Positions 6,395-33,684 of a stretch of 64,000 bases of DNA are shown here, piece by piece (the first letter of the stretch is position 1; the number at the start of each line of letters is the position of its first letter). The position numbers and the translations under genes were made by a program. The notes beneath the pieces were generated by a model, which was given only the letters and a program-made list of their open reading frames with translations, was not told the origin of the DNA and made no database searches. This stretch comes from Promethearchaeota archaeon (GTDB taxonomy: Archaea; Asgardarchaeota; Lokiarchaeia; Sigyniarchaeales; SOKP01): contig JBHLOY010000002.1 of NCBI GenBank assembly GCA_048939995.1, forward strand, positions 64,001-128,000. Direction: 5' to 3'.

Positions 6395-7615
6395 ATGGTT
6401 GATATTGAAAAGATAATTCTTAATAAAATAGATGAGACAAAGGATGAATTAGTTCAATTTCTTCAAGAACTTGTTCAATACCATTCAGAGGTTCCACCGG
6501 GTAAATATCGAGAACTATCTAAATTTATTGCAACAAAAATGGAAAAATTTGGCATAAAAACCCAAGTAAAAAGAAATAATGTAATTGGGGAATTGGGAGC
6601 TGAAAAAGGCCCTACCTTGATATTTAATGCTCACTATGATACTGTTACTACTCATGATGGATGGACTAAAATCCCTCATTCTGGTGAATTAATTGGCAAC
6701 AAATTATATGGTCGAGGTTCTGCTGATGACAAATCATGCATAGCCGCTGAAATATTTGCTGCAAAAGCTCTTTTGGATATGAATGTTGATCTAAAAGGGA
6801 AGTTAATAGTTACTGCTGTTGTTAATGAGGAAATTGGAGGTATAGGAGGAGCTGAATATCTTGTTAATGAAGGCATAGTCAAAGGAGATGCTTGTTTATT
6901 AGGAGATGGACCAGCTGACTATCCAATAATATATCGTGGAGGGGTACTTCAAATTAGTTTTAAAACTAAAGGTATTCGACGTCATGCTATGGCTTACCCT
7001 GATACAATCCCTAAATATCGCAATGAATATTCTGGAATAAATGCAGTACATAGAATGATCCCTATCATGAATTTTCTCATGGATTTACAAGAAGAGTTTA
7101 ATAAACAAGAAACCAAGTATTCTGTTCCTCCTGATTTACCAAAAAAAGTAAGCAGTATTGAAATAACAAAAATGGAAGGAGGAAATGCAATCGATACAGT
7201 AGCAGATAGTTGTACTTTACATTGTATGATGAATTTTATACCTGAACAAGATATTAATCATATTCGGACAAGGATTTTTAATTTCATAGAAGAATTGAAA
7301 AAAAATGATGCAAATCTAGATATTTCGGTCCAAAATCCCGTCTCAATCCCACCAAAAATAGGAGATCCTAACTCTACTATAGCTAGAGTTGTTAAGAATG
7401 CTTTTAAAAAAGTCCATAGTGAAGAACGAGATTTTAAAAGTTTTATCCCAACTACAGATGCTCATCTCTTTCAAATGAAGGGAATTGAAACTATTATAAT
7501 CGGGACTCTGCGAGGAGATAATAACTACCACGCCCAAGATGAGTTTGTTTATATTGAGGATGTGATAAATGCCGCAAAAGTTTATGCTTTGACTGCTTTG
7601 AATTATCTTACATGA
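6395..7615 (+). CDS. M20 family metallopeptidase/deacylase (ArgE/DapE-like)
   Basis: NAHYDTV, GRGSADDK, NEE and HAQDE metal ligands. Confidence 0.9.
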   Translation: MVDIEKIILNKIDETKDELVQFLQELVQYHSEVPPGKYRELSKFIATKMEKFGIKTQVKRNNVIGELGAEKGPTLIFNAHYDTVTTHDGWTKIPHSGELIGNKLYGRGSADDKSCIAAEIFAAKALLDMNVDLKGKLIVTAVVNEEIGGIGGAEYLVNEGIVKGDACLLGDGPADYPIIYRGGVLQISFKTKGIRRHAMAYPDTIPKYRNEYSGINAVHRMIPIMNFLMDLQEEFNKQETKYSVPPDLPKKVSSIEITKMEGGNAIDTVADSCTLHCMMNFIPEQDINHIRTRIFNFIEELKKNDANLDISVQNPVSIPPKIGDPNSTIARVVKNAFKKVHSEERDFKSFIPTTDAHLFQMKGIETIIIGTLRGDNNYHAQDEFVYIEDVINAAKVYALTALNYLT

Positions 7616-7705
7616 CTATTTTAAAGATAATCGAAAAGGCATAACTACAAATTTTTAGAAATATAAACTAAATGGTAAAAAAAGTATGTAAAAAATAGAA
7701 TTTAT

Positions 7706-8467
7706 TTATGCTTCTTCTTCTTTCCCCATTAAACGCATGACCGCATCCGCAAGTTTGTTTTGACTGCGGCTCATGATCCCTTTTACCTTACCTTCTACAC
7801 CAGTCACTCGGAGCATGATTCCATTCCAAACTGAACTAGGTTCTCCTTTTACATTCTTAAATCGATCCCGATGAACTTCAACTTCGATATTTTCATATTT
7901 GTTTGATGCATCAGAACATTTGAAACATAGAATGCATTTATCTACATCGACTTTAACTTCTTTGCCTTCTCGAGACATTGCATCAACTGAACATTCTTCT
8001 GTAAATTGATCAATAATAGTTGTATCTTTTTCATTACAAGTAATTTTTATTGAACCTTCTACTACTTTTCGTACTTTTCTTCCATCATCTAACGTCCGAA
8101 CTTCTTCGTCAAATTCTGGAAGAGAACCATTTTCAACTAACAATATTTTGTTTTCTCCATTAACTAATAACTCTAATGTATATCCCGGGCAAATCCAACT
8201 GCAGCTACCGCACCAAATACATTTTTCTGTATCAACAACGATCTTTTTATTAGATTCTATTTTCATTTCCTCAGGGGTTCCAATAGCTGTCTTTTTCAAT
8301 GGTTCATCGTATATAGAAATAGTAACCGGACAAACACGATGGCAAAATCCGCACTCGATACATTTTGATTCATCATATTTTAAGATCATTTCATGGTTGA
8401 GCATCTTGTAAACATAATGGGTAATATTTTCATCTACTTGTATCGTTTTCTTAGCTGGTAATGAAAT
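7706..8467 (-). CDS. Polyferredoxin (4Fe-4S dicluster; FwdF/MvhB-like); start at ATG 8404 or ATT 8467
   Basis: CIECGFCHRVCP, CIWCGSCSWICP and CILCFKC motifs. The frame is open upstream to an SD-like GGATGTGA at 8482-8475. Confidence 0.8.
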   Translation of the reverse strand: MSLPAKKTIQVDENITHYVYKMLNHEMILKYDESKCIECGFCHRVCPVTISIYDEPLKKTAIGTPEEMKIESNKKIVVDTEKCIWCGSCSWICPGYTLELLVNGENKILLVENGSLPEFDEEVRTLDDGRKVRKVVEGSIKITCNEKDTTIIDQFTEECSVDAMSREGKEVKVDVDKCILCFKCSDASNKYENIEVEVHRDRFKNVKGEPSSVWNGIMLRVTGVEGKVKGIMSRSQNKLADAVMRLMGKEEEA

Positions 8468-8523
8468 AATAATTTCACATCCTTTTCTATTAATTTTTCT
8501 TTTTTTTTTAATTTAGTAATAAT

Positions 8524-9663
8524 TTATGTTCTTTCTAATTCCATTTGTTCAATTGCCTTACCAGATCTGAAAGGTATGTCTTCCAAATTTTCTCCTGCGG
8601 TGTATCCGAATTCGTCTTTAAATGCTTCATTTAATGACTGAAAGTATAGAGACAAGGGGAGGTGTTGAGGGCAGTTATTATCACAATTTCCACATTCTAC
8701 GCATCTATCTGCAACATGAGCAATGCGTGTCAATTGATAAGTCTCTTTATTTATAACTTTATCTTTTCTCTTTTTTTGTAATATGCAATCAACGCAATAA
8801 CAAACTGGACATCCACGAATACACATCCCACACATAGTACATGCTTGAAGTTTTGCGATTTTCTCTTCTTGGGGGAGTTTATCCCATTCTTCTAAATCTT
8901 TCGCCCTTTTAGTCAATGCGTTTTCCTTCAGTTCTTTAACTTTATTAATGTGAGCTTTCTTAATATCAGCTGGAATCGTTTTTTTTTCAATTTTAGATGT
9001 TTCAATAAGTTCAGCTCCTTTATCAGAATATGCTTTTAGAATAATCTCATCAGAGTCAATAGATATACCAAGATCACTTATACCTATATCAGCTACAACG
9101 GGGATTTTTCTAGTACAGCGTGAACAATTATCAGCGATATCTAAATCAACCTCTTTCGTTGTTCCATCTGATAATTTAAGAATTAAACCTTTTTCTCCAA
9201 TTTTTTCTTTAATAACTTGAGTAGGATCTATGTCCTTAAATTTTTTTAGTTCCCGAGAAGCATTTATAACCATTCCTCTATCTTCAAACGCGATGATAAA
9301 GAGATTCTCTAAATTAATTTGCTTAATCTTAGCCAGCTCTATTATAGCTCTGGTATCACATGGTCGAGCAATAAGCGCTACTTTCTCTTGGAGTGCTCCA
9401 TTTACAGATTTATGCAAAAATTTAGCAGCGGAATCAGTCCTAGCATACCCATAAGAAATAAGATTTGTTAATGGGAAACTCTTAATATCTTCCGGTTTTT
9501 CATAGATGTTTGGAGATACTGTGAAACGATCTTCCTGATTAGTTTTTTTATCAATCCTAGTTTCAGCACCAATGATTTTGTTGACAACTTTCTCCTTTAG
9601 TAAACTAACTAGTATTTTTGGAAAGTCTTCAATTTTTATTAGATATTCTGCTATTGCATCCAT
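8524..9663 (-). CDS. FdhB/FrhB-family Fe-S (flavo)protein, F420 dehydrogenase beta-subunit-like
   Basis: IARPCD, NCSRC, CTMCGMCIRGCPVCYCVDC and RCVECGNCDNNCP motifs typical of FdhB. Confidence 0.85.
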   Translation of the reverse strand: MDAIAEYLIKIEDFPKILVSLLKEKVVNKIIGAETRIDKKTNQEDRFTVSPNIYEKPEDIKSFPLTNLISYGYARTDSAAKFLHKSVNGALQEKVALIARPCDTRAIIELAKIKQINLENLFIIAFEDRGMVINASRELKKFKDIDPTQVIKEKIGEKGLILKLSDGTTKEVDLDIADNCSRCTRKIPVVADIGISDLGISIDSDEIILKAYSDKGAELIETSKIEKKTIPADIKKAHINKVKELKENALTKRAKDLEEWDKLPQEEKIAKLQACTMCGMCIRGCPVCYCVDCILQKKRKDKVINKETYQLTRIAHVADRCVECGNCDNNCPQHLPLSLYFQSLNEAFKDEFGYTAGENLEDIPFRSGKAIEQMELERT

Positions 9664-9781
9664 AGTTTTTCCAACTCAAAATTAATTGTACAAGATTTTA
9701 ATATTACTATATTCCAGTGAAATTTTTTTCTATTTTTATTTAATTTTAAACTAAAAATTACAATTTTATATGTGTTTTATG

Positions 9782-9840
9782 GTGCTCCCATTTCCTCAGC
9801 TAAGTTCTCATTTTTATAACTCAGCGTCATTAGCTAACAC
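9782..9840 (-). ncRNA. SECIS element, eukaryote-type, in the 3' UTR of mvhD
   Basis: Minus strand reads GUGUU-AGCUA-AUGAC-GCUGAGUU-[AUAAAAAUGAG]-AACUUAGC-UGAG-GAAAUGGG-AGCAC. It has the AUGAN/NGAN core, a fully paired 8-bp helix II, an A-rich apical loop and a closing helix I, and begins 8 nt after the stop. Confidence 0.9.
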
Positions 9841-9848
9841 ATTATTTT

Positions 9849-10310
9849 TTAAGCCTTTGCTTTTTCTTTGGCTTTGGCTTTCTCTTGCGCGCCACCTTTT
9901 ACACGTAAAGGACTAGGTCCAAGTTCACGAATAACTTTATCAAACTCAATAGCCGCATTTTGAAACTTCTGACCCTCAGCTGCACTACAATATCCAAACA
10001 TTATTCGCTTTTCATTAAGCCCTAATGTCTTCACAACAGCTTTTATGTACTCAAATTCGCGAAATGCAAAATAATTGCCAGTTTCATAATCACACTCATG
10101 AGGATATCATCCAATTATCATTATACCGTCTGCTCCTCTTCCAAATGCCCTAGCAATAAGATCGCTATCAACCCGTCCTGTACATGGTACCAATATCGTT
10201 CTTAAAGAGGGTGGATATTGTGCTCTAATTGTTCCAGCCATATCGGCTGAACCATAACCTCATTTCCAACAAAGGAAGGCTATTATCTTTATATCTTCTT
10301 CTTCTGCCAT
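9849..10310 (-). CDS. mvhD: Hydrogenase iron-sulfur subunit MvhD/VhuD, selenoprotein (Sec17, Sec68), 153 aa
   Basis: ATG at 10310 after SD GAGGTGG. Reads MAEEEDIKIIAFLCWK-U-GYGSADMAG...VPCTGRVD...GADGIMIIG-U-YPHECDYETGN. TGAs at 10260-10262 and 10107-10109 occupy conserved Cys positions. The track shows only the last 61 aa. Confidence 0.95.
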
Positions 10311-10324
10311 TTTAATCCACCTCT

Positions 10325-12301
10325 CTACTCCTGGATTGGAAGTAATTCATCAATTAATGCCATGTATTGGTCATCTCTAAAGTAAGTTAATTCAATAGCT
10401 TTAGAAGGACATGTCGCTGCGCATGTTCCGCATCCTCTGCAGCGAATTAAATCTACAACGATATTCCCCTTTTCATTTATTGAAATTGCAGTATATGGAC
10501 AAGCTTCAATGCATTTATAACATTTTGCACATCTTTCATCTGAGGGAGTCGCTCGAATTAATTCCATAGTATATTCACCTTTACCCATTGGAATTGCGGC
10601 TGCTGATGCTGCACCTCTTGCTTGACTTACAGTCTTATCTATCTCTTTTTGTCCTTGGGCAGACCCACAAATGAAAATTCCAGGTACTTTTGTACTAATT
10701 GGATCAAGACGGGCATGATATTCTTTTAAAAACCCATCAGGACTTCTTTCCATATTTAATACTCTAGCAATTTCAATTGTTCCTTTTGACGGAAGTGAGG
10801 CAGGGGAAAGAACAACCATATGAAATTCCCCAGTCACTACAGTGTCAGTGCCTACAGGTTCCCACTGGGCTAGTAAATTCTTGGTCAATGGGTCCTCTTC
10901 GATTTTTCCAACAAGACCTTTGACAAAAATTATTCCTGCATCTCGCGATCTTCTGTAGTATTCTTCATAATCTTTACCTGCACATCTCATATCAATATAA
11001 GTGCATAGGATTTCTGAATCGGGATATTCAGATTTAATCAGCTTTGAATTTTTAAGAGATAAATTACAACAAACGACAGAACACCATGGATTTTTACTCA
11101 CGTCACGAGATCCAACGCAATTTATGAAAAGAATCTTAGTAGGACGCTTGCCATCAGAAGGACGTTTTAAATGACCGTAAGTTGGACCGTTAGGAGCTAA
11201 TATCCGCTCCAACTCAATCTGGTTAACAACATTTTCATATATGCCATAACCATAATCATCTCCTTCATAAAGATCCCAACCAGTAGCTACGACTATAGTT
11301 CCAATCTCAAGATCTAAAATTTCTTCTTGTTGAGAAAAATCAATTGCATCTTCTTCACAAGAATCGACACAGCTAAAACATTCAACACAAGACTCTCTAG
11401 CAATATCATATACGGCAGGTACGGCCTGCGCAAATGCGATGTCAATACATTTTCTGGCTGAAAGATTTTCATCGAAATAATTAGGTACATAAATGGGACA
11501 AACATCAACACAAGCTCCGCACCCAGTGCATTTAGTTTCAAGGACATAACGTTGATTTCTTTTCACTTTTACTTTGAAGTTTCCAATATATCCATCTACT
11601 TTAATTACTTCACTGTAGGTTAATATCTCGATGTTGGGATGCCTATTCGATTCTAACATTTTTGGACCGAGAATTCAGATTGAACAGTCATCTGTGGGAA
11701 ACGTACGATCTAATTGGGACATTCTCCCTCCAATTGTTGTATTCTTCTCAACTAAGTATACTTTACATCCTGCATTACCTAAATCTATAGCTGTTGATAG
11801 CCCAGCGATTCCTCCACCAACTACTAAAGCTGTCTTTTTTACAGGTACAGTCATAGTGGGAACGTCTTCTAATAATCTTGCTCTCGCCACCCCTGCCTTT
11901 ATTAATTCAATAGCTTTTTGGAGTGCTCTCTCACGAACTTCAGGTGATTGGTGAACAAAACTACAATGTTCTCTGATATTTACAAACTCTAAATATCTTG
12001 GTGGTAAACCTGCTTCAGAAAGTATTGCATGGAAAACTGGTTGATGAGTTTTAGGTGTACAAGCGGCTACAACAATACGTTCAAGCTTGCTTTCTTCTAT
12101 TTGTTCTTTAATATAAGTGGATCCTCCTTCAGTACACATACTTAGGTACTCAAACGCTTTTACTCCTTCTATTTTATTGAGTTCTTCTACGATTTTTGGG
12201 ATATCCAAGATACCAGCGATATTAATACCTCAGCGGCACACAAAAACGCCAACAATAGACTTTTTAGCTTCATTATTTTCTTTGGTCTGGTTTCCAGACA
12301 A
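10325..12301 (-). CDS. hdrA: Heterodisulfide reductase subunit A, selenoprotein (Sec24, Sec209), 658 aa
   Basis: Track ORFs 11675..12208 and 10325..11659 are one frame, joined by TGA 11675-11677 in FPTDDCSI-U-ILGPKM. Upstream, TGA 12230-12232 lies in VGVFVCR-U-GINIAG (canonical CxCG). TTG start at 12301 follows GGTG. Contains GGGIAG FAD motif and several CxxCxxC clusters. Confidence 0.95.
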
Positions 12302-12578
12302 TTTTTACACCTTTATTAATATATCCTCCTAATTTTTTAAGAGTATATTTAGTATATATGTTTTTATAATAGCATAAAAACTAAAATTTATGATATTGTT
12401 AATAGTCCTTCTTATTAAAATTACATTATTATTCCATTTCATCCACTAATTTAAAAGTTTAATAAAAATATTCTTTCTCTTTTACGACAAAAATTTAAAG
12501 CTTTCTTTTATCTTCAAAAAATAAGGTTATACAAAATGAGAAACTATAAAAATAAAAAGAAAATAAGTATTTGGAACT

Positions 12579-13136
12579 TTAACCTTGAGATTCAGCAATT
12601 ATGTCTCCAAATAATCGCTTTACAGCTTCAATACGAGTTTCTTCTCCTATTTGCTCAACATTTTTGAGTGAAATGGCTTCTTTTGGGCATACTGCTATGC
12701 ACTGAGGCTCTCTCACCCCGACTTCGGGATCAATAAATTCTTCTTTCATATTTTCACATAAATCGCAAACAAGAGCTTTCTGAGAAGAAATATGAAGAGA
12801 AATAACTCCGAAATCGCAAGCACGAATACAAAATCCGCATCCATTACACTTATCCTCCTCTACAATAATGGAACCTGTTTCTGGATCCTGCTCCAACGCT
12901 TTCTCCGGACAGCTACGAACGCAAGGAGAGTCTTCACATTTCTGGCATGCTAGCGCAATGTTAAAAATAGGTTCTATTCTTACTCGATGAATTCTAGTAT
13001 TAATGGGATTAAATTCTGCGTCATGCACAAAACTACACACGCTTTCACACGTCTCGCAGCCCGTACATAAGTTTGGATCTACGATGATAAATTGGTGCAT
13101 AACTCCTCCCCGCTTTTTAGTCTTAGCCTTTGACAT
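12579..13136 (-). CDS. 4x[4Fe-4S] electron-transfer subunit (DmsB/HydN/AorA-like) of the AOR
   Basis: CTGCETCESVC, CQKCEDSPCVRSCP, CNGCGFCIRAC, CDLC...CIAVCP. Lies 1 nt downstream of aor. Confidence 0.9.
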   Translation of the reverse strand: MSKAKTKKRGGVMHQFIIVDPNLCTGCETCESVCSFVHDAEFNPINTRIHRVRIEPIFNIALACQKCEDSPCVRSCPEKALEQDPETGSIIVEEDKCNGCGFCIRACDFGVISLHISSQKALVCDLCENMKEEFIDPEVGVREPQCIAVCPKEAISLKNVEQIGEETRIEAVKRLFGDIIAESQG

Positions 13137-13137
13137 G

Positions 13138-15078
13138 TTACCTCTTACCTCCTTTGGTTGCTGGTTTTAATTTTCCAATCACGAAATCTAACCCTAATTT
13201 TTTCAATGTTTCATCAGTAGGGATTCCTGTCTCTTTATCCCAACCCCGTGCTTCATAATATCCGCTTAATATTTTTTGATATCCATCTTCATTTAATGTA
13301 TACCCTTTGGCAGGACCTTTTGTATGGGCTTCCTTGAAAAATCGATCTGGAGGACGATCATCAGCTCGTGTCCAACCCTCTCTAATATTAAAGCATTTAG
13401 AAAGGTTTAAAATAGCTTCTCCTCGAAGCAAAATTGATTCCTCAGTATGTGGAATTCCAGTGACTAGTTCATATACTTTTGCCATTTCTGCATCAGATTC
13501 ATAGATCCCTCGTGTAAATTTACAGATTATATATGAATCAATAAGCGCATAAACATCCTCAAGTTTTTTGATTGCTTTTCCCCGTTCGAGTGGTTTATCA
13601 TATCCAAATCTATCAAATGTACCTTTTGCATCAAGCCCATAAGCTCCATTGCGTAAATGGCACGCTCCTCGAATAGATACACTCATTCCCACCGCAAATG
13701 AAGTCATGCCATGGACATCAAAGGCAGGGAGTTCTAGCCCTTTAACATGCATAGCATAGTAGCTCGCATTTTTTCTACCCATTTCTTCTAATCGTTTACC
13801 AGCTTCTCTAACACCATCACCAAAAATTTCTCCTGCAAAACCCTTTCCAAGGATCATTTCTTCTGTAAACCTTACAAGATTCACAGTCGAGCCAAAAGGT
13901 AGCTTATATCCTAAATCTTTTTCTGTGATCACACCTTCCTCGAAGCATTCACACGCCATTGCTGCCGTTGCACCACCAGAAATCGCATCGATTCCCAGAT
14001 CATCACACAAGGTTACACATTTAAATACACTTGGCCAATCAGAATTACCACAGGCAGTCCCAAAACCGTAACATAATTCTTGATCTATACTTGCATAAGT
14101 ATTTGGCCAATTTGGATGGGATTTTGGTACTTTTGTAATGTGGTCACATGCAATTGAGCATTGAGAGCAAGCCACTTTTTTGACAACCCAATCTTGATTA
14201 AGTGTATCTCCCGAAAAAGTTCCATCGTCAATCTTATCCCATGTACCTTCTTTGTGGTTGAATATTGGCATCATACCTAGTTTATTATAACTAGTTAAAC
14301 CAGAAGGTGTGCCCAGATCTCTATATTTAGCTGTAGCAGGACCATTTGCAACTTTGATTAATTTTTTTGCTAGTTTATAAAATTCAGCAGGATTTGCAAC
14401 TTTGGTTCCCTTAGTACCTCTAAAACAGACAGCTTTTAAATTTTTAGAGCCCATAACTGCCCCCATACCAGTACGACCAGCTTGCCTATTGCGATCATTG
14501 GTTAAACATGCCATATGGCTCATACGTTCTCCAGCTTGACCAATAGCCATCACTGCAAGTCTATGATCTTGAAATTCTTTCCTTAGAAGCTCCTCGGTTT
14601 CCCAACAACCCTTGCCCCAAACTGTATTTTTGCATGGTACTAAATAATAGTCATCATCATCCACAACCATATAAACAGGTTCAGGAGATTTACCTTTGAA
14701 CACGATCATGTTGATTCCTGCTCTACGGGCTTGAGCTCCTACAGAACCTGATGAGATTGCCATACCAAACATTCCTGTTAATGGTGATTTAGCAAAAACA
14801 CCGTATTTAGAACTAGTTGGTAATATGGTCGTTGGAAAAGGTCCGTGACAATAAACAAAGACATTATCTGGGCTAAGAGGATCAATACCTGGCTTAAGTT
14901 CATCCCAAAGTACCTTTGCACCAAATCCATAACCCCCAATCCAATCTCTACAGAATTCTCTAGATAGTTCCGATTTTTCAATTTTACCATTGGTAAGATC
15001 AACATCAAGCCTTGTTTGGGTATACCCTTTTACATCATCGGGTACAGCTACTTCCTTAGCTTTACTCATGTTTTTCAC
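13138..15078 (-). CDS. aor: Aldehyde:ferredoxin oxidoreductase (tungsten-pterin AOR family)
   Basis: KSPLTG, AGRTGMGAVMGSKNLKA, CSQCSIAC, CDDLGIDAIS, RGACHL, YYEARGWD. Confidence 0.93.
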   Translation of the reverse strand: MKNMSKAKEVAVPDDVKGYTQTRLDVDLTNGKIEKSELSREFCRDWIGGYGFGAKVLWDELKPGIDPLSPDNVFVYCHGPFPTTILPTSSKYGVFAKSPLTGMFGMAISSGSVGAQARRAGINMIVFKGKSPEPVYMVVDDDDYYLVPCKNTVWGKGCWETEELLRKEFQDHRLAVMAIGQAGERMSHMACLTNDRNRQAGRTGMGAVMGSKNLKAVCFRGTKGTKVANPAEFYKLAKKLIKVANGPATAKYRDLGTPSGLTSYNKLGMMPIFNHKEGTWDKIDDGTFSGDTLNQDWVVKKVACSQCSIACDHITKVPKSHPNWPNTYASIDQELCYGFGTACGNSDWPSVFKCVTLCDDLGIDAISGGATAAMACECFEEGVITEKDLGYKLPFGSTVNLVRFTEEMILGKGFAGEIFGDGVREAGKRLEEMGRKNASYYAMHVKGLELPAFDVHGMTSFAVGMSVSIRGACHLRNGAYGLDAKGTFDRFGYDKPLERGKAIKKLEDVYALIDSYIICKFTRGIYESDAEMAKVYELVTGIPHTEESILLRGEAILNLSKCFNIREGWTRADDRPPDRFFKEAHTKGPAKGYTLNEDGYQKILSGYYEARGWDKETGIPTDETLKKLGLDFVIGKLKPATKGGKR

Positions 15079-15443
15079 TAATTTTTAATTTATAATATGA
15101 AATTAAACAATTTAATATAGAGAACAACTCTTTATTAGGTTAATTGTTAGATTCCTATAACTAATTTCTTTAAATTTTCATATTTTTAAATTTTTTTTAT
15201 GATTGATTTTGTGTTAACTTCTCTGAATATAGAAATTTTTTGTTCATTATGTTCTAATTCATAAAATTGAATAAGAAAATAGGAATTATGATTCGCTTTT
15301 TATAAAGGCTGAATAAAATTCGATTTTATAACATAATAGGTTAATTAAAAAAATATGATAGATTTTGTTTATCAAAGATAGAGTAATAAAACTTACTCTT
15401 TGAATATTATTCAGAGTAAACAAAAAAAAAGAACTGATTCAAA

Positions 15444-16340
15444 TTGCCCTATAAGATTTTAGGAAAAAAGGAGCTAGGTAACAGCGGATTGTTATATGAA
15501 ATGGTTTTAGATACTCCTTTAATTGCTAAAAAAGCATTTCCGGGAAATTTTATTCTCTTACGGATTAATGAAAATGGAGAACGCTTTCCATTAACAATAG
15601 CGGATTATGATGAAACAAAAGGAACAATAACAATTGTCTTTCAAATTGCTGGAAAAAGTACCAAGTTACTTTCACATCAAAATGTGGGAGATGAAATTCT
15701 TGATGTGGTTGGACCGTTAGGTAACAGAATTCATGCACAAAAATATAAATTTCCTGTTATAATCATTGGAGGTGGTGTTGGGATCGCTGAATGTTATCCT
15801 CAAGCAAAAGAATTAAAGAAAGCAGGAAATAAAATTATTTCTATTATTGGTGCAAGGAATACAGGATTACTTTTTTGGAGAGAAAAGATACGATCTGTAA
15901 GTGATCGCGTAATAATATGTACTGATGATGGAACTGAAGGGATTAAAGGCGTTGTAACCCAACCACTAAAAGAAATACTTTCAAGAGAAAGGATAAGCCT
16001 AGTAATCGCCATCGGTCCCTTAGTTATGATGAAGTATGTCGCGCGAGCTACTGATGGTTCTGGAGATTTGCCGAAGGTGAAAACTTCTGTTTCATTAAAT
16101 ACTATTATGATAGATGGAACAGGAATGTGTGGGGGATGTCGTTTTTCAACCTTAGAAGGAGATATTTATTTTGCATGCGTAGATGGACCCGATGTGGATG
16201 CACACGTAGTAGATTTTGATAATCTTATAAAGCGTTCCATGAGATTTGTTGAATTAGAAAAGCAAGCATTAGACAATTATGATCATGAATGTAAAGCATT
16301 AGGAAAATTGCAAAGTGAGGGACCTCAAAATGGAAAATAA
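15444..16340 (+). CDS. nfnA: NfnA/SudB: NADH-dependent reduced ferredoxin:NADP+ oxidoreductase small subunit
   Basis: GERFPLTIAD, GPLG, GGGVG and the [2Fe-2S] motif DGTGMCGGCR...CVDGP. Confidence 0.9.
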   Translation: MPYKILGKKELGNSGLLYEMVLDTPLIAKKAFPGNFILLRINENGERFPLTIADYDETKGTITIVFQIAGKSTKLLSHQNVGDEILDVVGPLGNRIHAQKYKFPVIIIGGGVGIAECYPQAKELKKAGNKIISIIGARNTGLLFWREKIRSVSDRVIICTDDGTEGIKGVVTQPLKEILSRERISLVIAIGPLVMMKYVARATDGSGDLPKVKTSVSLNTIMIDGTGMCGGCRFSTLEGDIYFACVDGPDVDAHVVDFDNLIKRSMRFVELEKQALDNYDHECKALGKLQSEGPQNGK

Positions 16341-19053
16341 TTTCCCCTTAATTGAAATCCTCCTTAATAACAAAAATAAGATATTAGAAGTTGGTAAATA
16401 TAATGAAAAAGAATTTAAGCAACTTATAGATTCTGTAACAGCCGTTGAAACAGAAAGGCAAGAAGTTTTGAATAAAATTAAGGAATTAGGATCGATCGAC
16501 GTACCTAAGTTACAAAGCGAATTAGGACAATCTGAAGAGAGTATCTTATGTAAAATCGAATCTTTAAGAGAGTTAGGTTTATTAGGTTTCATTGGAGAAA
16601 AGCCAAGATTTTTTGCGAAATATATTGAAAACTATGAAATAAAGGGAATATTCCCTACCACTGATTTGATTAAAGATAGCAATCTTTGCTGTGGATGTGG
16701 GCTTTGCGTTTCAGTTTGTCCTGTTAATGCAATTGATTACGTAGAAGATAATTTTAAATTGAATAAGGATTTATGTATTAAATGTGGGTTATGTTATTCC
16801 GCATGTCCTAGATCCTTTTTTCCAAAACCTTTGGAAAAACTTCCAGATAATGATGATACTAATGTTAAGTTTATAGAATCGTTCCATTATTTTCGAGACA
16901 TTTTTACAGCTCAAACTACAGATAAAAGAATAAGGGAAGTAGCTCAAGACGGTGGTATAGTCACAACCTTGCTCAAAACTGCTTTTAGAGAAGGATTAGT
17001 AGATGGTTCCTTTGCTGTAACAACAGGAGAATTGCCGTTAAAACCTTTACCTATTCTAATCGAAAGTGAGGAGGAGCTTTTAAAAACGGCTGGAACTAAA
17101 TATACAAATGTTCCATTACTTAAAATCTTTCGCGATGCTAAGGATCGTGGCAAAATTGCAGTTGTAGGTACACCATGCATAATGAAAGCTTTAAGAAAGC
17201 TCTCACTTTGTCCTATTAATAAACCTTTTTATGAAAATATTGTTTTAAAAATTGGATTATTTTGCATGGAATCCTTTGATTATGAAAAAATTGTAGAATT
17301 ACTCAAAAATGAATTTAATGTATATCCATCAGATGTAAAAAAGATGGATATAGATAAGGGAAGCTTTATCATTTATAACCGGGAGAGTATTCCTTCCAAA
17401 ATACCAATTAAAAGAATTAAGAAATATGGTAGATTTGGTTGCTTTTTCTGTGAAGATCTGACTTCAAATTATGCTGATATCTCCGTAGGATCTATTGGTT
17501 CAGAGCCTGGTTGGTCAACAGTAATAGTTCGGACAATGAAAGGCGCGGAATTTTTTAAAAAGGTTTTAGATTTAAATATGGCCATCAAGAAAGATATAAG
17601 AATAAATGATCATAACTTTATGGAATTAAGTAGAATAGCTAACTCTAAAATAAAGAACTATATCGAACAACATAGGGTAAAGATGATAGAGCAAGATCCT
17701 AAAGAGAGAATAAATAATTTTGAGGAAGTACCTTATGGATTAACTGATGAAATGATGGAGCAAGAAGTACAAAGGTGCTTGCAATGCGGTTTACCTTTAT
17801 GCGTTACTGGATGTCCTGTTAATATTAGGATTCCAGAATTTATCAAACTACTTAAGGAAGGAAAAAAAATACAAGCTCTTTATAAAATTAAATCTAGTAA
17901 CCTTCTTCCTGCTATTTGTGGCAGAGTATGTCCACAAGAAACGCAATGTGAAGAGACTTGTATGCTAAATTCTCTAGAAGAACCTATCGCGATCGGGCAT
18001 TTAGAAAGATATATTGCTGATTGGGAGAGGAAAAATAAATTAAAGGAATGCCCCGAGTGCTCCCCTCCCAATGGTATTAAGGTTGCGGTTATTGGATCCG
18101 GACCCGCTGGATTAACCTGTGCAGGAGAATTGGCAATGAGAGGATATGATGTTACCATATTTGAAGCATTTCATGCGGGAGGTGGAGTATTAACCTACGG
18201 AATTCCCGAATTTAGGTTACCAAAAGAGGTAGTAAAAGAAGAAATTGAAACTCTTAAAATGCTTAACGTAAAAATTAACTATAATGCAATAATTGGAAAA
18301 ATTCTAACAATTGATGATCTAAAAGAACAAGGATATAAAGCTTTCTTTATAGGTGTTGGAGCTGGGTTGCCATCTTTCATTAAAGTAGCTGGATTGAATT
18401 TAAATGGTGTTTTAACAGCTAATGAGTTTCTCACAAGATCGAACTTGATGAAAGCTTATAGATTCCCTGAATATGATACCCCCATAAAAGTTGGAAAAGT
18501 TGTAACAGTTATAGGAGGAGGAAATGTTGCTTTGGATTCAGCTAGAACTGCCCTAAGGTTAGGTGCTGAAAACGTAACTATTGTGTACAGAAGGTCAGAA
18601 GAGGAAATGCCTGCAAGAAAGGAAGAATATCACCATGCAATAGAAGAAGGGATAAAATTTGAATTCCTGACAAATCCAGTAAGGTTTATTGGTGATGAAA
18701 ATGATAATGTAAAGCAAATGGAAGTAATAAGAATGAAACTTGGAGAACCTGATCAATCTGGGCGTAGAAGCCCCTTACCTATTGAAAATTCTGAGTATCT
18801 CATTGATACTGATACTATTATTATTGCCATTGGAGCAAGAGCAAACCCTACCCTAACAAAATCAATTCCAGAATTGCAATTAAATAAGTGGGGATATATA
18901 GAAACTGATGAAGAGGGACAAACTAATTTAGAAGGAATTTTTGCAGGTGGAGATATTGTTACAGGTACTGCTACAGTTATCTCCGCAATGGGGACTGGTA
19001 AGAAGGCTGCAGCAACAATTGATAAATATCTGCAACAAAAAAGTGAAAAATAA
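16330..19053 (+). CDS. Fusion of an N-terminal helical domain, a 2x[4Fe-4S] FrhB-type F420-binding domain and NfnB/SudA (GltD-like)
   Basis: FrhB motifs CCGCGLCVSVCP, AQDGGIVT, GTPC, GLFCME and DISVGSIGSEPGWSTVIVRT are followed by NfnB motifs RCLQC...CVTGCP, CGRVCPQETQCE, GSGPAGL and GGGNVALD. One continuous frame; ATG at 16330 overlaps the nfnA end. Confidence 0.88.
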   Translation: MENNFPLIEILLNNKNKILEVGKYNEKEFKQLIDSVTAVETERQEVLNKIKELGSIDVPKLQSELGQSEESILCKIESLRELGLLGFIGEKPRFFAKYIENYEIKGIFPTTDLIKDSNLCCGCGLCVSVCPVNAIDYVEDNFKLNKDLCIKCGLCYSACPRSFFPKPLEKLPDNDDTNVKFIESFHYFRDIFTAQTTDKRIREVAQDGGIVTTLLKTAFREGLVDGSFAVTTGELPLKPLPILIESEEELLKTAGTKYTNVPLLKIFRDAKDRGKIAVVGTPCIMKALRKLSLCPINKPFYENIVLKIGLFCMESFDYEKIVELLKNEFNVYPSDVKKMDIDKGSFIIYNRESIPSKIPIKRIKKYGRFGCFFCEDLTSNYADISVGSIGSEPGWSTVIVRTMKGAEFFKKVLDLNMAIKKDIRINDHNFMELSRIANSKIKNYIEQHRVKMIEQDPKERINNFEEVPYGLTDEMMEQEVQRCLQCGLPLCVTGCPVNIRIPEFIKLLKEGKKIQALYKIKSSNLLPAICGRVCPQETQCEETCMLNSLEEPIAIGHLERYIADWERKNKLKECPECSPPNGIKVAVIGSGPAGLTCAGELAMRGYDVTIFEAFHAGGGVLTYGIPEFRLPKEVVKEEIETLKMLNVKINYNAIIGKILTIDDLKEQGYKAFFIGVGAGLPSFIKVAGLNLNGVLTANEFLTRSNLMKAYRFPEYDTPIKVGKVVTVIGGGNVALDSARTALRLGAENVTIVYRRSEEEMPARKEEYHHAIEEGIKFEFLTNPVRFIGDENDNVKQMEVIRMKLGEPDQSGRRSPLPIENSEYLIDTDTIIIAIGARANPTLTKSIPELQLNKWGYIETDEEGQTNLEGIFAGGDIVTGTATVISAMGTGKKAAATIDKYLQQKSEK

Positions 19054-20004: not shown

Positions 20005-23000
20005 ATGGTTATCAGCATTAAAGAACTCAAGTATTACTGCCCTTTTTGTCAAAACAAGTTAAGTTCTCGCTATTCCAAATGTTTTAATACTTACTGTGAA
20101 GGTCAAAAGTTTAATGTTGGTAATTTAATTTATTATCGTTTAAATCCAAACTTAGGAATAGGTAGGATTCAAAAGAAATTAGAGATACCTGCATCAAGGA
20201 GATTAGATGAGGAAGATACTTTTCTCATTACTAAATTTAAAGTCCAATTTGAGAATAATATCAGTAGAATTGTTCATCCGATTGATCTTATTCACGTAAT
20301 ATTTACTTTAAATGAACGAGTTATAATTGAATCAGGAACAGGAGTTATAAACTCGAATGACTTTCTCTTCAAAGATGGCAAAATTTCCTATGAAATATTA
20401 TTTCCAAATGGAAATCTCTCTCAAATTTCTGAATCTGAAATAAAATCTATTTATCAACCTTTAATAAAAAAAATTATCTCAAGCAGAGTAACCGATCCTC
20501 CTCAAAACTTCTTAATTAAATATTGGGCTAATCTTTTTCATTCATATTATACCTCATATCAGATAAAATGTATTACGAATAGCAGGTTATCATTAATGCC
20601 TCATCAAATAAATGTAGCTCATCGTTTATCAGAGGAATATTTCCCAAGAGTGATTCTTGCAGACGAGGTTGGGCTTGGAAAAACAATAGAAGCTGGTATA
20701 TTTATTAAGGAAATGATGGCTAGGAACTTAGCAGAAAGGATTTTAATTATCGTACCTGCCTCACTTGTGAAACAATGGGCTTTTGAAATGAGCAATAAGT
20801 TTAATATTGAATTTACTATCTATGATGGTAAGAAAATTAAAGAATTGAAACAAAGAGGGGATAACAAGAGTTTCAATTTATTAGAGAACCCATTTTATTA
20901 CGATAGTAAGCTCATACTATCATTACAATTTGCTCGAAATCCAAAATATATAGATTTACTCTCTCGTATTTCATGGGATATTGTTGTCTTCGATGAAGCA
21001 CATCATTTAAGACGATATTTATTAAATCAAGCCACAGGAAGTTATCGAGAAACTTTAAATTATACATTAGCAAGAAAAGTAAGTAATACTAGCGAATCTT
21101 TGCTTCTATTAACAGCAACACCATTGCAACTCCATTCTTTTGAATTGTATTCTTTAATTGAACTCATTCAGAGAGAAGCTTTTGAAAGTTTTTCAGAGTT
21201 CGAACATTTTAGAAAGAATATGCCTTTTATTAATCTTCTTGTTGCAAACATCAATCAGATTGAGAAGTTAAATAACTTTGAAGTAAAAAATACAGTTAAG
21301 TTGCTTAAAAACTTAAATTACATAGATTGGAAAAAAGGTGATAATGAAATTCTAAATTCTTTAAAAGATGATACTTTTAAACTCAATTTAGTAAAAAAGA
21401 TTGAAAAAGATCATACTTTATGGAAATTTCTTATTCGTAATCGTAAAAAGAATGTTTTTTCTGAGGATTTATTAAATAAGAGAATAGTAAAGACTATAAT
21501 TGTAAATCCATCAAGAGAGGAATTAGAAGTTTATAATGAGATTCGTCTCTACTTAGCCAAAATTTATAACTTATCTATTAATGAAGGAAATGTTGGTTTG
21601 GGATTTATCATAACTACTTTACAAAAATTATTAACTAGTTCTAAATATGCGTTCTTAAAAAGTCTTGAGAGAAGATTGGAGCAAATAAAAAGATATAAAA
21701 GTTTGAGGATTAATTTAGAGGAACTTAGAGAAGAGGATCCAGAGTATTTTGAAATAGAACTTGAAGAAGAAAATATTGAGAGTGATGTTTTTGATCATCT
21801 AAATGGGATTAAATCTAATAATAGTCAAGAATCTCCTTTAGATATTATAAATCAAGAAAAATTGTTAATTGATTTTTATGATAAATTAACATCCCTATCT
21901 TATGATACAAAATCTAAGAAGTTAATTGAATTGCTTTCCCAGATTTATGAAGCTAATAAAAATGAAAAAGTGTTAATCTTTACCCAGTTCGTTGACACTT
22001 TAATACATCTTAAGGAATTAATTCAAAGCTACATAAAAGAGAGTCAAGTGGAAGTATTTTATGGGGGGCTAGATAAAGATGAGAAAGATCTAGCTGTTGA
22101 AAGATTTCGAACTGATGATAAATTCTCAGTTTTAATCTCAACAGAAATTGGAGGTGAGGGCAGAAATTTCCAATTTTGTAGGGTGTTAGTTAATTATGAT
22201 CTTCCATGGAATCCAATGAAATTAGAACAAAGAATAGGGCGACTAGATAGAATTGGTCAGGAATCTAAGGAGATATATATCTACAATTTTTTCTTGGAGG
22301 GAACAATAGAAACAGATATTATTTTTGCTTTAAATAAGAGAATAAACCTATTTGAAGAGTCAATTGGCGTTTTAGAACCAATTATAGGAAAAATTGAAAA
22401 AGAAATTAAAGAAATTGTTTTTATTGAAAGTGAGGGAAAGAAAAGAAAAAAATTGAATGAATTCTATCGCAATCTCGATGAGCAATTTCAGAGAGCCAAA
22501 GAAATTGAAATGCAGTTTGAAGATTTATTAATAGATAAAAAATCATTTCAAATGGATGATTTAATTACATCCTGTGAGGACGTCAAACTAACACATAATG
22601 AATTATATCTTCTAATTAAATATTTTTTTGAGTTAAAAGATAATTTGTATGGATATTTAGAAAAATACAGAGATAAGATGAGTAATTCGCTCGTGAAAAT
22701 TAGTATGAAAGAGGATCTGTTATCGAATTCGAATTTTAACCTTTCTGAGGAATATATTGGAACTTTTAACTTAAATTTAGCACGAGAAAGAGAAGATATT
22801 GATTTTTTCGCTTTAGGACATCCTATGATAAACGCTATTATAGATTTTTGTAGAAATAATTCATTTAAAGGAAATTTTACCTTCCTAATAATAAAAAAAA
22901 ATCGTTTAGCGAAGATTTTTCAGATGAATTTCCAAAAAGATAAAACATTTTATTTATTAATATTTAAAATTAAATTTCAAGGTTATATTATCGAATATCA

Positions 23001-23589
23001 GTATATTGCAATCATAGTCGATGAGAATGGTGAAGAGATTGAAAATCTAGCTGAAATCATACTTAATATTGAAAATTTTTCAAAAATATTTGAATATGAG
23101 CACTTTACTGATAATATATTAGATTTAAATCAGGGACTTACAGAAGAAATCGTTCTGAAAGCAAAAAATCTAGTAAAGAGAAAAACATCGAACTGGAAAC
23201 AAGAGATAAGGGCATTAAATGATAAAATCTATAATTTAGAGCGAAGTAAGAAAGAAAAAGTTTATCAGTTTAAAAGCAAGATATTAACTCAAAAAATTGG
23301 GAATTTAAATCGTAAATTAGAAAGAAAAGTAAAACAAAAACCAACTGAAAAACAAATGAAGAATATTTTAAGTTTAACTGATGAAGCTAAAAGAAGAGAA
23401 AGGTTAAAAAAAGTGAAGCAAATTGATGAGGATATAAATTTTCTTGAAAAGGATATTGCTTTTACAGAAAAAAAAATTGATGATTTATCTTTTGAATTTG
23501 AAGATATTAAAAATGAAATGATAAAAAGAAACTTAGCTAAATTTTATACGAATTTATCTTCTTTTGCTATTGTGAAAATAGTAGAATAA
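20005..23589 (+). CDS. SNF2-family helicase/ATPase, RapA/HepA-like
   Basis: PHQ, LADEVGLGKTIEAG, DEAHH, LTATP, GGEGRNFQ, DLPWNPMKLEQRIGRLDRIGQ. N-terminal Cys4 cluster and C-terminal coiled coil. Confidence 0.9.
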   Translation: MVISIKELKYYCPFCQNKLSSRYSKCFNTYCEGQKFNVGNLIYYRLNPNLGIGRIQKKLEIPASRRLDEEDTFLITKFKVQFENNISRIVHPIDLIHVIFTLNERVIIESGTGVINSNDFLFKDGKISYEILFPNGNLSQISESEIKSIYQPLIKKIISSRVTDPPQNFLIKYWANLFHSYYTSYQIKCITNSRLSLMPHQINVAHRLSEEYFPRVILADEVGLGKTIEAGIFIKEMMARNLAERILIIVPASLVKQWAFEMSNKFNIEFTIYDGKKIKELKQRGDNKSFNLLENPFYYDSKLILSLQFARNPKYIDLLSRISWDIVVFDEAHHLRRYLLNQATGSYRETLNYTLARKVSNTSESLLLLTATPLQLHSFELYSLIELIQREAFESFSEFEHFRKNMPFINLLVANINQIEKLNNFEVKNTVKLLKNLNYIDWKKGDNEILNSLKDDTFKLNLVKKIEKDHTLWKFLIRNRKKNVFSEDLLNKRIVKTIIVNPSREELEVYNEIRLYLAKIYNLSINEGNVGLGFIITTLQKLLTSSKYAFLKSLERRLEQIKRYKSLRINLEELREEDPEYFEIELEEENIESDVFDHLNGIKSNNSQESPLDIINQEKLLIDFYDKLTSLSYDTKSKKLIELLSQIYEANKNEKVLIFTQFVDTLIHLKELIQSYIKESQVEVFYGGLDKDEKDLAVERFRTDDKFSVLISTEIGGEGRNFQFCRVLVNYDLPWNPMKLEQRIGRLDRIGQESKEIYIYNFFLEGTIETDIIFALNKRINLFEESIGVLEPIIGKIEKEIKEIVFIESEGKKRKKLNEFYRNLDEQFQRAKEIEMQFEDLLIDKKSFQMDDLITSCEDVKLTHNELYLLIKYFFELKDNLYGYLEKYRDKMSNSLVKISMKEDLLSNSNFNLSEEYIGTFNLNLAREREDIDFFALGHPMINAIIDFCRNNSFKGNFTFLIIKKNRLAKIFQMNFQKDKTFYLLIFKIKFQGYIIEYQYIAIIVDENGEEIENLAEIILNIENFSKIFEYEHFTDNILDLNQGLTEEIVLKAKNLVKRKTSNWKQEIRALNDKIYNLERSKKEKVYQFKSKILTQKIGNLNRKLERKVKQKPTEKQMKNILSLTDEAKRRERLKKVKQIDEDINFLEKDIAFTEKKIDDLSFEFEDIKNEMIKRNLAKFYTNLSSFAIVKIVE

Positions 23590-33016: not shown

Positions 33017-33103
33017 ATTTACAAATTTATTTTCTTAACATTTTATCTTAATTAATAGTTTATAGACAATTTCTTTAAATTGAATATGAAAAAAATATTA
33101 ACT

Positions 33104-33616
33104 ATGACAGAAGAGGAACCGCCACGACCTAAGGGATTACCAGTTGGTATGAAGGCTCCCAAATTTGACACAGTCGACATTTATGGGAATGAGATTAGTT
33201 TAGCAACTCTACTTGATAACTATGATGGCATTATAATTGACTTTTTTCGGGGGAACTGGTGAAATCACTGTAAAAAACACCTTAGACTATTAACAGAAAA
33301 GAGTTCTGAATTTAAGAAGAGAAATATTAAACTGCTTTCAATTGCGAGTGATAGTATGCGTTTATTACAAAAGTTTAGAGAAGAGAACAACTTTAATGTG
33401 GATATTATCTCCGATAGAGGGGCTAAAATCGCTAAAGATTATGATGTTTATTGGTTTGCACCTGGAGGAGGTGGAAAAATCAACGTTAAACAAGCAGTTC
33501 CCAGTAAATTTCTCATAAATAAAAATGGAATAATAATTTGGAAATATATTGGAAAAGATAAGACTGATAGACCCTCAATAGAATTAATGACAAAAATAAT
33601 TGATGAAAAAATTTAG
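33104..33616 (+). CDS. Peroxiredoxin-like (AhpC/TSA, BCP-like) selenoprotein with UxxC motif, 170 aa
   Basis: Track ORFs 33080..33262 and 33356..33616 are one frame: GMKAPKF...FFRGNW-U-NHC-KKHLR...ISD...AKDY...VPSKFLI...DRP. TGA 33260-33262 is the first Cys position of the family RGxWCxxC motif. Confidence 0.93.
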
Positions 33617-33619
33617 AAT

Positions 33620-33684
33620 CCTATAAGAATGATTCATTCATAGAAAAATGAGATGAGTGATGACAGCCCTGCAAAGGTTTTAGG
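33620..33684 (+). ncRNA. SECIS element, eukaryote-type, in the 3' UTR of the Prx-like selenoprotein gene
   Basis: CCUAUAAGA-AUGAU-UCAUUCAU-[AGAAAAAUGAG]-AUGAGUGA-UGAC...UUUUAGG. AUGAN/NGAN core, 8-bp helix II and an 11-nt loop matching the mvhD element at 10 of 11 positions. Confidence 0.9.

What the first reader, a model, noticed from the sequence alone, without database searches (positions are those of the whole stretch)
9782..12301. Four Sec codons across two cistrons (hdrA, mvhD) apparently served by one downstream eukaryote-type SECIS
Seen: four in-frame TGAs (12230, 11675, 10260, 10107), all at conserved Cys positions. Only 14 nt, holding the SD, separate hdrA from mvhD, so hdrA has no 3' UTR of its own. 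The only SECIS-like hairpin I found is after mvhD, about 2.4 kb from the first UGA. Known: Lokiarchaeota have multi-Sec HdrA/VhuD and eukaryote-like SECIS elements, so the selenoproteins themselves are not new. Inference: one 3' SECIS acts at long range, across a stop codon and a second cistron of a polycistronic mRNA. That would combine operon architecture with the eukaryotic 3'-UTR mechanism. Both genes terminate with non-UGA stops (TAG, TAA), as does the next gene (TAA), which fits the model.
Basis: partly seen in the sequence, partly recalled or inferred. Interest (0 to 1): 0.85.

Follow-up and report, generated by a model that had tools for sequence, protein, structure and literature searches.

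The report
Shared SECIS of Asgard hdrA-mvhD pair
Two neighbouring redox-enzyme genes of an Asgard (Loki-type) archaeon each carry two UGA codons read as selenocysteine, and a single eukaryote-like RNA hairpin behind the second gene almost certainly serves both; this is real, but the arrangement and its interpretation were published in 2016 and 2024.

Summary
Observation confirmed. hdrA (10325-12301, minus strand) has UGA at codons 24 and 209, mvhD (9849-10310) at 17 and 68, all at Cys positions. The genes are 14 nt apart. One lokiSECIS begins 18 nt after the mvhD stop, and a covariance model finds no second one between 7600 and 15500. The genome encodes SelD, SecS, PSTK, EFSec and a two-intron tRNA-Sec, plus three more Sec pairs built the same way.

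This scan has also met it on several other genomes.

Added here is a natural control. In 52 close pairs hdrA never has its own SECIS or a UGA stop. In 12 unpaired Sec-hdrA genes, 11 carry their own SECIS, and the state changes at least six times on the tree. Co-transcription and Sec insertion remain unshown by experiment.

Verdict: already known, low interest. Side leads: an invariant dyad at the hdrA start codon, a Sec-Sec protein family, and introns in relatives' mvhD.

The parts
10325..12301 (-). hdrA, 658 aa HdrA with Sec24 and Sec209 (canonical site); TTG start, TAG stop
   Evidence: (NF040770 E 5e-223)
12230..12232 (-). UGA codon 24 of hdrA (CxU motif; Cys in paralogs)
   Evidence: TGA in all 13 further close orthologs aligned
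11675..11677 (-). UGA codon 209 of hdrA, the canonical Sec site at about position 200
   Evidence: present in all Sec-hdrA loci fetched
10311..10324 (-). 14-nt spacer with Shine-Dalgarno GAGGTG; 13-17 nt in orthologs, so no conserved in-frame fusion
9849..10310 (-). mvhD/vhuD, 153 aa with Sec17 and Sec68; TAA stop
   Evidence: (NF045873 E 2e-40)
10260..10262 (-). UGA codon 17 of mvhD
10107..10109 (-). UGA codon 68 of mvhD
9770..9842 (-). lokiSECIS (type I): lower helix 9842-9836 with 9776-9770; AUGA 9830-9827; upper stem 9825-9818 with 9806-9799; 11-nt loop 9817-9807; GA 9797-9796; small side hairpin 9791-9779
12285..12299 (-). invariant dyad GTCTG-N5-CAGAC over the hdrA start codon; not a SECIS; role unknown (RNA hairpin or DNA operator)
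8524..9663 (-). FdhB-like F420-binding subunit without UGA, 185 nt after mvhD and conserved behind it in close orthologs; context only

Best explanation
This is an ordinary member of the Lokiarchaeia HdrA-VhuD(MvhD) selenoprotein pairs. hdrA and mvhD are transcribed as one mRNA (inferred), and mvhD starts from a Shine-Dalgarno site just behind the hdrA stop (coupling inferred). The single lokiSECIS in the 3' UTR folds into a kink-turn core with an A-rich loop (sequence and covariation shown; protein binding inferred). Through a still unknown SECIS-binding factor it lets EFSec with Sec-tRNA-Sec decode any in-frame UGA on that mRNA that lies far enough upstream: two in hdrA, up to 2.4 kb away and across a stop codon, and two in mvhD (inferred). 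A UGA within about 20 nt of the hairpin, or inside its AUGA, escapes recoding and can act as a stop. That is why mvhD often ends in UGA and hdrA of a close pair never does (pattern shown, cause inferred). The products are the flavin subunit HdrA and the [2Fe-2S] adaptor MvhD of an electron-bifurcating complex, probably fed by the FdhB-like F420 subunit encoded next (inferred from homology).
For: Four TGA at conserved Cys sites with open frames beyond them. Only one SECIS in the region. Full machinery in the genome: SelD with its own UGA, SecS over cut-off, PSTK E 4e-47 full length, EFSec E 1e-69, and tRNA-Sec with UCA anticodon and 9/4 fold after removing two introns in silico. All eight genome-wide model hits at E<0.001 lie behind Sec genes; seven of them are training sequences and the C8 element is not. 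The genome's 4 Sec pairs each have a SECIS after mvhD only, and its 10 Cys-only mvhD copies have none. In 52 close pairs the SECIS follows hdrA in 0 and mvhD in 48; hdrA ends in TGA in 0 and mvhD in 19. Among 12 stand-alone or separated Sec-hdrA genes, 11 have their own SECIS and 5 end in TGA. Locus L110, with a 678-nt gap, has one hairpin after each gene. The paired or alone state changes at least 6 times on the HdrA tree. No synonymous-site constraint or conserved fold lies behind any UGA. Published: PMC4989117, PMC11227280. A 3' SECIS works at 520-679 nt without strict distance limits in M. maripaludis (PMC9622424).
Against: No RNA or protein data were available, so co-transcription and Sec insertion are not shown. 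[quoted passage not shown] A lokiarchaeal SECIS did not work in M. maripaludis (PMC11881835), so the element has never been shown to function. The covariance model was trained on 18 elements, mostly from one genus, and scores divergent families weakly (15-18 bits), so a very different signal inside hdrA could be missed. The loci are related and were picked by hand from search hits, so the counts are not independent samples.
Confidence: 0.92

Rival explanations
1. hdrA has its own, different recoding signal, for example the invariant dyad at its start codon or an element hidden in the coding sequence, and the 3' SECIS serves mvhD alone.
For: Codons 1-15 of hdrA show a significant drop in synonymous diversity (0.18 against 0.49; below all 1000 column shuffles) and a conserved 5-bp hairpin. 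The motif occurs twice in the genome, both times at a Sec-hdrA start. A 5' UTR SECIS is known for Methanococcus fdhA1.
Against: The dyad has no AUGA/GA core and no A-rich 11-nt loop, and scores 7 bits with the model. Two of this genome's four Sec-hdrA genes lack it although they too have no SECIS of their own. Stand-alone Sec-hdrA genes use an ordinary lokiSECIS behind their stop. No other constrained window stands out in hdrA or mvhD. The ban on a UGA stop in paired hdrA is what a downstream signal predicts.
Confidence: 0.04
2. hdrA and mvhD are separate transcripts or are processed apart, and hdrA UGAs are decoded without a SECIS in cis (context-dependent read-through, or a signal acting in trans).
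For: No transcript data exist for this genome, and no SECIS reader is known in Asgard archaea.
Against: A 13-17 nt spacer leaves no room for a terminator plus promoter, and no unusual synonymous constraint points to a promoter inside the hdrA 3' end. If hdrA needed no SECIS in cis, 11 of 12 stand-alone copies would not keep one. UGA is the normal stop of 16% of long ORFs, so read-through is not general.
Confidence: 0.03
3. The UGAs are true stops and hdrA is a pseudogene or yields truncated products.
For: Under table 11 the gene falls into pieces of 177 and 444 aa.
Against: The same TGA sites are kept at Cys positions across dozens of genomes in four families, without frameshifts in the close orthologs, and the Sec machinery is complete.
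Confidence: 0.01

Closest known systems
HdrA-VhuD tandem selenoprotein genes with one shared lokiSECIS (Mariotti et al. 2016, PMC4989117)
   Same: Gene order, very short spacer, multi-Sec HdrA with the canonical site, two-Sec VhuD, single SECIS behind VhuD with AUGA, 9-bp stem, 11-nt A-rich loop ending AG and GA; non-UGA stop of hdrA; tRNA-Sec with a T-loop intron near EFSec on the opposite strand.
   Different: Four UGA here against up to six there. This tRNA-Sec has a second, 34-nt intron in the D arm. My sample also holds Sec-hdrA genes without a close mvhD, which the paper did not see.
Asgard hdrA-frhD clusters sharing type I eSECIS-like elements (Huang, Xiao, Zhang 2024, PMC11227280)
   Same: Same pair and same shared element, catalogued across Asgard genomes.
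   Different: The paper says the two genes are always together; 12 Sec-hdrA loci fetched here are stand-alone or separated, and 11 carry their own SECIS.
Eukaryotic type I SECIS (3' UTR, read by SBP2)
   Same: AUGA/GA kink-turn core, unpaired adenines in the apical loop, action at a distance from the 3' UTR, minimal distance rule. It works like one.
   Different: Shorter upper stem, no Rfam SECIS match at the gathering score, no SBP2 in Asgard archaea, and it acts on a two-gene mRNA.
Methanococcales SECIS and Hdr-Vhu genes (PMC9622424, PMC11881835, PMC13518236)
   Same: Homologous HdrA (Sec197 there, Sec209 here) and VhuD; SECIS outside the coding region with loose distance limits.
   Different: Methanogen elements rely on a GAA/A internal loop, HdrA has one Sec, and a lokiSECIS is not read in M. 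maripaludis.

Membership tests
lokiSECIS / Asgard type I eSECIS-like element | AUGA directly before the stem and GA (or AA) directly after it | tested here: met
   9830-9827 and 9797-9796
lokiSECIS / Asgard type I eSECIS-like element | 9-bp stem with 11-nt apical loop | tested here: met
   8 standard pairs plus the C.U pair of the core, 11-nt loop; all 8 pairs covary
lokiSECIS / Asgard type I eSECIS-like element | A-rich first five loop bases; loop ends in G, mostly after A | tested here: met
   loop starts AUAAA and ends AG
lokiSECIS / Asgard type I eSECIS-like element | Close to the end of a selenoprotein coding sequence | tested here: met
   18 nt after the mvhD stop
lokiSECIS / Asgard type I eSECIS-like element | Directs Sec insertion and binds a kink-turn protein | not testable with these tools
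   needs experiment; not functional in M. maripaludis
Loki HdrA-VhuD shared-SECIS pair | hdrA upstream of vhuD, same strand, very short spacer | tested here: met
   14 nt
Loki HdrA-VhuD shared-SECIS pair | HdrA with the canonical Sec near 200, further Sec at conserved Cys; VhuD with two Sec | tested here: met
Loki HdrA-VhuD shared-SECIS pair | Single SECIS behind vhuD and none elsewhere nearby | tested here: met
Loki HdrA-VhuD shared-SECIS pair | hdrA ends in UAA or UAG | tested here: met
   TAG here; 0 of 52 pairs with TGA
Loki HdrA-VhuD shared-SECIS pair | Complete Sec machinery in the genome | tested here: met
   SelD and SecS over cut-off; EFSec (236 against 242 bits) and PSTK (161 against 290 bits, full length) below cut-offs but best hits; tRNA-Sec rebuilt by removing two introns
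Loki HdrA-VhuD shared-SECIS pair | One polycistronic mRNA | not testable with these tools
   needs RNA data; see Tried and rejected
Bacterial SECIS | Conserved stem-loop directly 3' of each UGA, inside the coding sequence | tested here: not met
   z from -0.9 to +0.3 behind the four UGA; no synonymous constraint or conserved fold in orthologs
Eukaryotic SECIS (Rfam) | Reaches the gathering score of an Rfam SECIS family | tested here: not met
   0 matches in the window; this lowers membership, not the likeness
Methanogen (euryarchaeal) SECIS | GAA/A internal loop clamped by G-C pairs | not tested
   no dedicated scan was run; Huang 2024 judge such elements rare and probably non-functional in Asgard genes

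The most novel reading that the evidence does not exclude
The invariant dyad GTCTG-N5-CAGAC over the hdrA start codon, kept in Sec-hdrA paralogs only 46% identical and broken in one stand-alone copy (L133), is a second cis element of the system. It could be a hairpin that slows initiation or loads the SECIS-bound factor at the 5' end, or an operator of a selenium-responsive regulator, and would help explain how one SECIS reaches 2.4 kb across a stop codon.
Probability: 0.1. Interest if true: 0.6.

Novelty: already known. Interest (0 to 1): 0.12.

Why it matters
A SECIS that serves two cistrons links operon logic with the eukaryotic 3' UTR mode of UGA recoding and bears on how the eukaryotic system arose. 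That point has been in the literature since 2016 and is still untested by experiment. This locus adds one more instance. The only addition of value is the comparative control: the hairpin follows the last Sec-bearing cistron and reappears behind hdrA whenever mvhD is absent or far away. This strengthens the published model and corrects the statement that the two genes are always adjacent.

Tried and rejected
Rfam at gathering score: no match in the window, and tRNA-Sec was missed in the genome because of its two introns. ARAGORN with introns allowed gave mostly noise.

Bacterial-type hairpins behind the UGAs: none. Hidden element in hdrA or mvhD by synonymous conservation: only codons 1-15 of hdrA stand out. 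Long-range pairing of the SECIS flanks with the coding sequence, as in Methanococcus fdhA1: best sites differ between orthologs, and no strong conserved one lies at a UGA. In-frame read-through from hdrA into mvhD: rejected, since spacers of 13, 14 and 17 nt give no common frame. The sigma-70 promoter and terminator scan is at chance level and does not suit an archaeon.

Sequencing runs: no RNA holder listed; this is no evidence either way. The careful tree did not finish; the quick tree was used. Fisher tests on stop codons (p 1e-4 and 5e-7) overstate because the loci are related.

Full report
Observation. On the minus strand hdrA runs 12301-10325 (658 aa with UGA read as Sec) and mvhD 10310-9849 (153 aa). 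In-frame TGA codons sit at 12232-12230, 11677-11675, 10262-10260 and 10109-10107, and a 14-nt spacer holds GAGGTG. The proteins match HdrA and VhuD models and solved HdrA and MvhD chains. Each TGA aligns with a Cys in the Cys-only paralogs of the same genome. Codon 209 is the canonical HdrA Sec site; the M. maripaludis structure places Sec197 in a Cys-Sec pair between cluster A3 and FAD (PMC13518236).

The hairpin. Eighteen bases after the mvhD stop lies AUGA, then a stem of eight standard pairs above a C.U pair, an 11-nt A-rich loop ending AG, and GA. A lower helix closes it. It folds with z = -3.75. In a gap-free alignment of 18 such elements from orthologs and paralogs every stem cell pairs, all eight pairs show two-sided changes, and slid controls fall to 27-48% pairing. 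The elements were picked by a pairing pattern, so 100% is partly built in, but the variety of pair types is not. Rfam has no match at its thresholds.

Is there a second signal? A covariance model of these elements, run without filters on 7600-15500, finds only this hairpin (55 bits, a training sequence); the next hit is 14.6 bits and partial. In 20 related loci, no hit of note falls inside hdrA or mvhD. The 60 nt behind each UGA fold no better than shuffles. Across orthologs there is no synonymous constraint behind the UGAs or in mvhD, and no strong conserved long-range pairing of the SECIS flanks at a UGA. One exception: codons 1-15 of hdrA are constrained and carry an invariant dyad GTCTG-N5-CAGAC. 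It is not SECIS-like, two of the four Sec-hdrA genes here lack it, and it occurs only twice in the genome, both times at a Sec-hdrA start. Its role is open.

Machinery. The genome (contig C17 holds the window) encodes SelD with its own UGA, SecS, PSTK and EFSec. Between EFSec and SecS on C23 lies a tRNA gene that, after removing introns of 34 nt (D arm) and 30 nt (T loop) in silico, gives a 93-nt tRNA with a UCA anticodon, 9/4 fold and G discriminator, which ARAGORN calls tRNA-SeC.

Internal and external controls. The genome has 14 mvhD copies. Four carry two TGA each and follow a Sec-hdrA; ten are Cys-only. All eight model hits at E<0.001 lie behind Sec genes: the four pairs, a Prx-like gene, vhuU and two Sec-Sec ORFs. 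None lies behind a Cys pair. Among loci from this genome and relatives of the same order, 52 close pairs never have a SECIS behind hdrA and have one behind mvhD in 48. hdrA ends in TGA in none of them, mvhD in 19, often with the stop inside AUGA. Twelve Sec-hdrA genes have no close mvhD; 11 carry their own hairpin and 5 end in TGA. One locus with a 678-nt gap has a hairpin behind each gene. The paired or alone state needs at least six changes on the HdrA tree. These loci are related, hand-picked and partly on short contigs, so the counts are support, not a formal test.

Mechanism. Shown: the codons, the hairpin and its covariation, the absence of a second hairpin, the machinery genes, and the comparative pattern. 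Inferred: one mRNA, coupled translation of mvhD, delivery of EFSec with Sec-tRNA by an unknown reader of the kink-turn to ribosomes anywhere upstream on that mRNA, and a minimal distance that protects the last stop codon. A 3' SECIS without strict distance limits is established for M. maripaludis (PMC9622424), but a lokiSECIS is not read there (PMC11881835). The next gene encodes an FdhB-like F420-binding subunit kept behind the pair in close orthologs, which suggests an F420-linked HdrA-MvhD module; this is inference from homology.

Comparison with the literature. Mariotti et al. 2016 report that in all HdrA-VhuD tandems only one lokiSECIS is found, downstream of VhuD. They also report that the genes are most likely translated from one polycistronic mRNA, that up to six UGA over about 2 kb are served, and that HdrA always ends in UAA or UAG because a UGA would be recoded (PMC4989117). 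Huang et al. 2024 confirm the shared element across Asgard genomes (PMC11227280). Every defining feature that could be tested here is met. Earlier reports of this scan reached the same verdict on other genomes; they are not independent evidence.

Verdict. Real, correctly interpreted, already known. Interest 0.12. The stand-alone hdrA controls are a modest addition, and the side observations listed under Noticed in passing are of more interest than the finding itself.

Noticed in passing
L087:2834-3307 (+) = G000:C16, and L086:2838-3197 (-) = G000:C11; relatives L140-L169: A family of about 150-aa proteins with two adjacent in-frame UGA (motifs HADUU and DVGCUU), each followed by a lokiSECIS. 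Hits in 49 of 61 genomes searched across the class, nearly all with 2 TGA; a SECIS pattern follows 26 of 32 matches; no Pfam match. It is not among the seven Asgard families of Huang 2024, nor among the archaeal families named in the passages read of a 2026 review. Other first readers of this scan noted it too. Probably an undescribed Sec-Sec selenoprotein family and worth its own follow-up.
   Followed up: partly
L046, L047, L065 (mvhD of G016, G023, G029): A 30-31 nt insertion one codon before the first Sec codon of mvhD in 3 of 81 distinct genes. It holds an in-frame TAA in G023 and shifts the frame in G029, folds like a bulge-helix-bulge intron, and its removal restores FLCWK-U-GYG. Absent from this window's gene. 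The scan has reported such introns in other Asgard genomes.
   Followed up: partly
window 12285-12299 (-): Invariant dyad GTCTG-N5-CAGAC over the hdrA start codon, using the rare codons CAG and ACC; also a second invariant AGGAGG about 28 nt upstream of the start. Found at two of the four Sec-hdrA genes of this genome and nowhere else in it.
   Followed up: partly
window 33080-33616 (+) and 33629-33663 (+): Prx-like selenoprotein gene (UxxC, 178 aa) with the window's second lokiSECIS directly behind it; a known Loki family.
   Followed up: yes
L089:6476-6632 (+) = G000:C23:113475-113631: tRNA-Sec gene with two introns (34 nt in the D arm, 30 nt in the T loop), missed by Rfam and ARAGORN, directly upstream of secS.
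   Followed up: yes
L090, L092, L088 (G000:C8, C21, C17:421779): In two mvhD paralogs and in vhuU the stop codon is the UGA of the SECIS AUGA core; published for VhuU.1 in 2016.
   Followed up: yes
L110 (G031), L111, L113-L115, L118, L119, L133, L136-L139: Sec-hdrA genes without a close mvhD, 11 of 12 with their own SECIS, contrary to the published statement that the genes are always adjacent.
   Followed up: yes
window 15444-19053 (+): NfnA/SudB-like gene followed by a 912-aa fusion of an FrhB-type F420 domain with an NfnB/GltA-type flavoprotein; possibly an F420-linked bifurcating transhydrogenase.
   Followed up: no
window 20005-23589 (+): 1194-aa SNF2-type helicase resembling DrmD/RapA, below the curated cut-offs; possibly part of a defence island.
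   Followed up: no
G000:C17:215780-215826 (+): A SECIS-like hairpin (29 bits, E 0.012) with no Sec ORF found upstream on that strand; chance or an orphan element.
   Followed up: no
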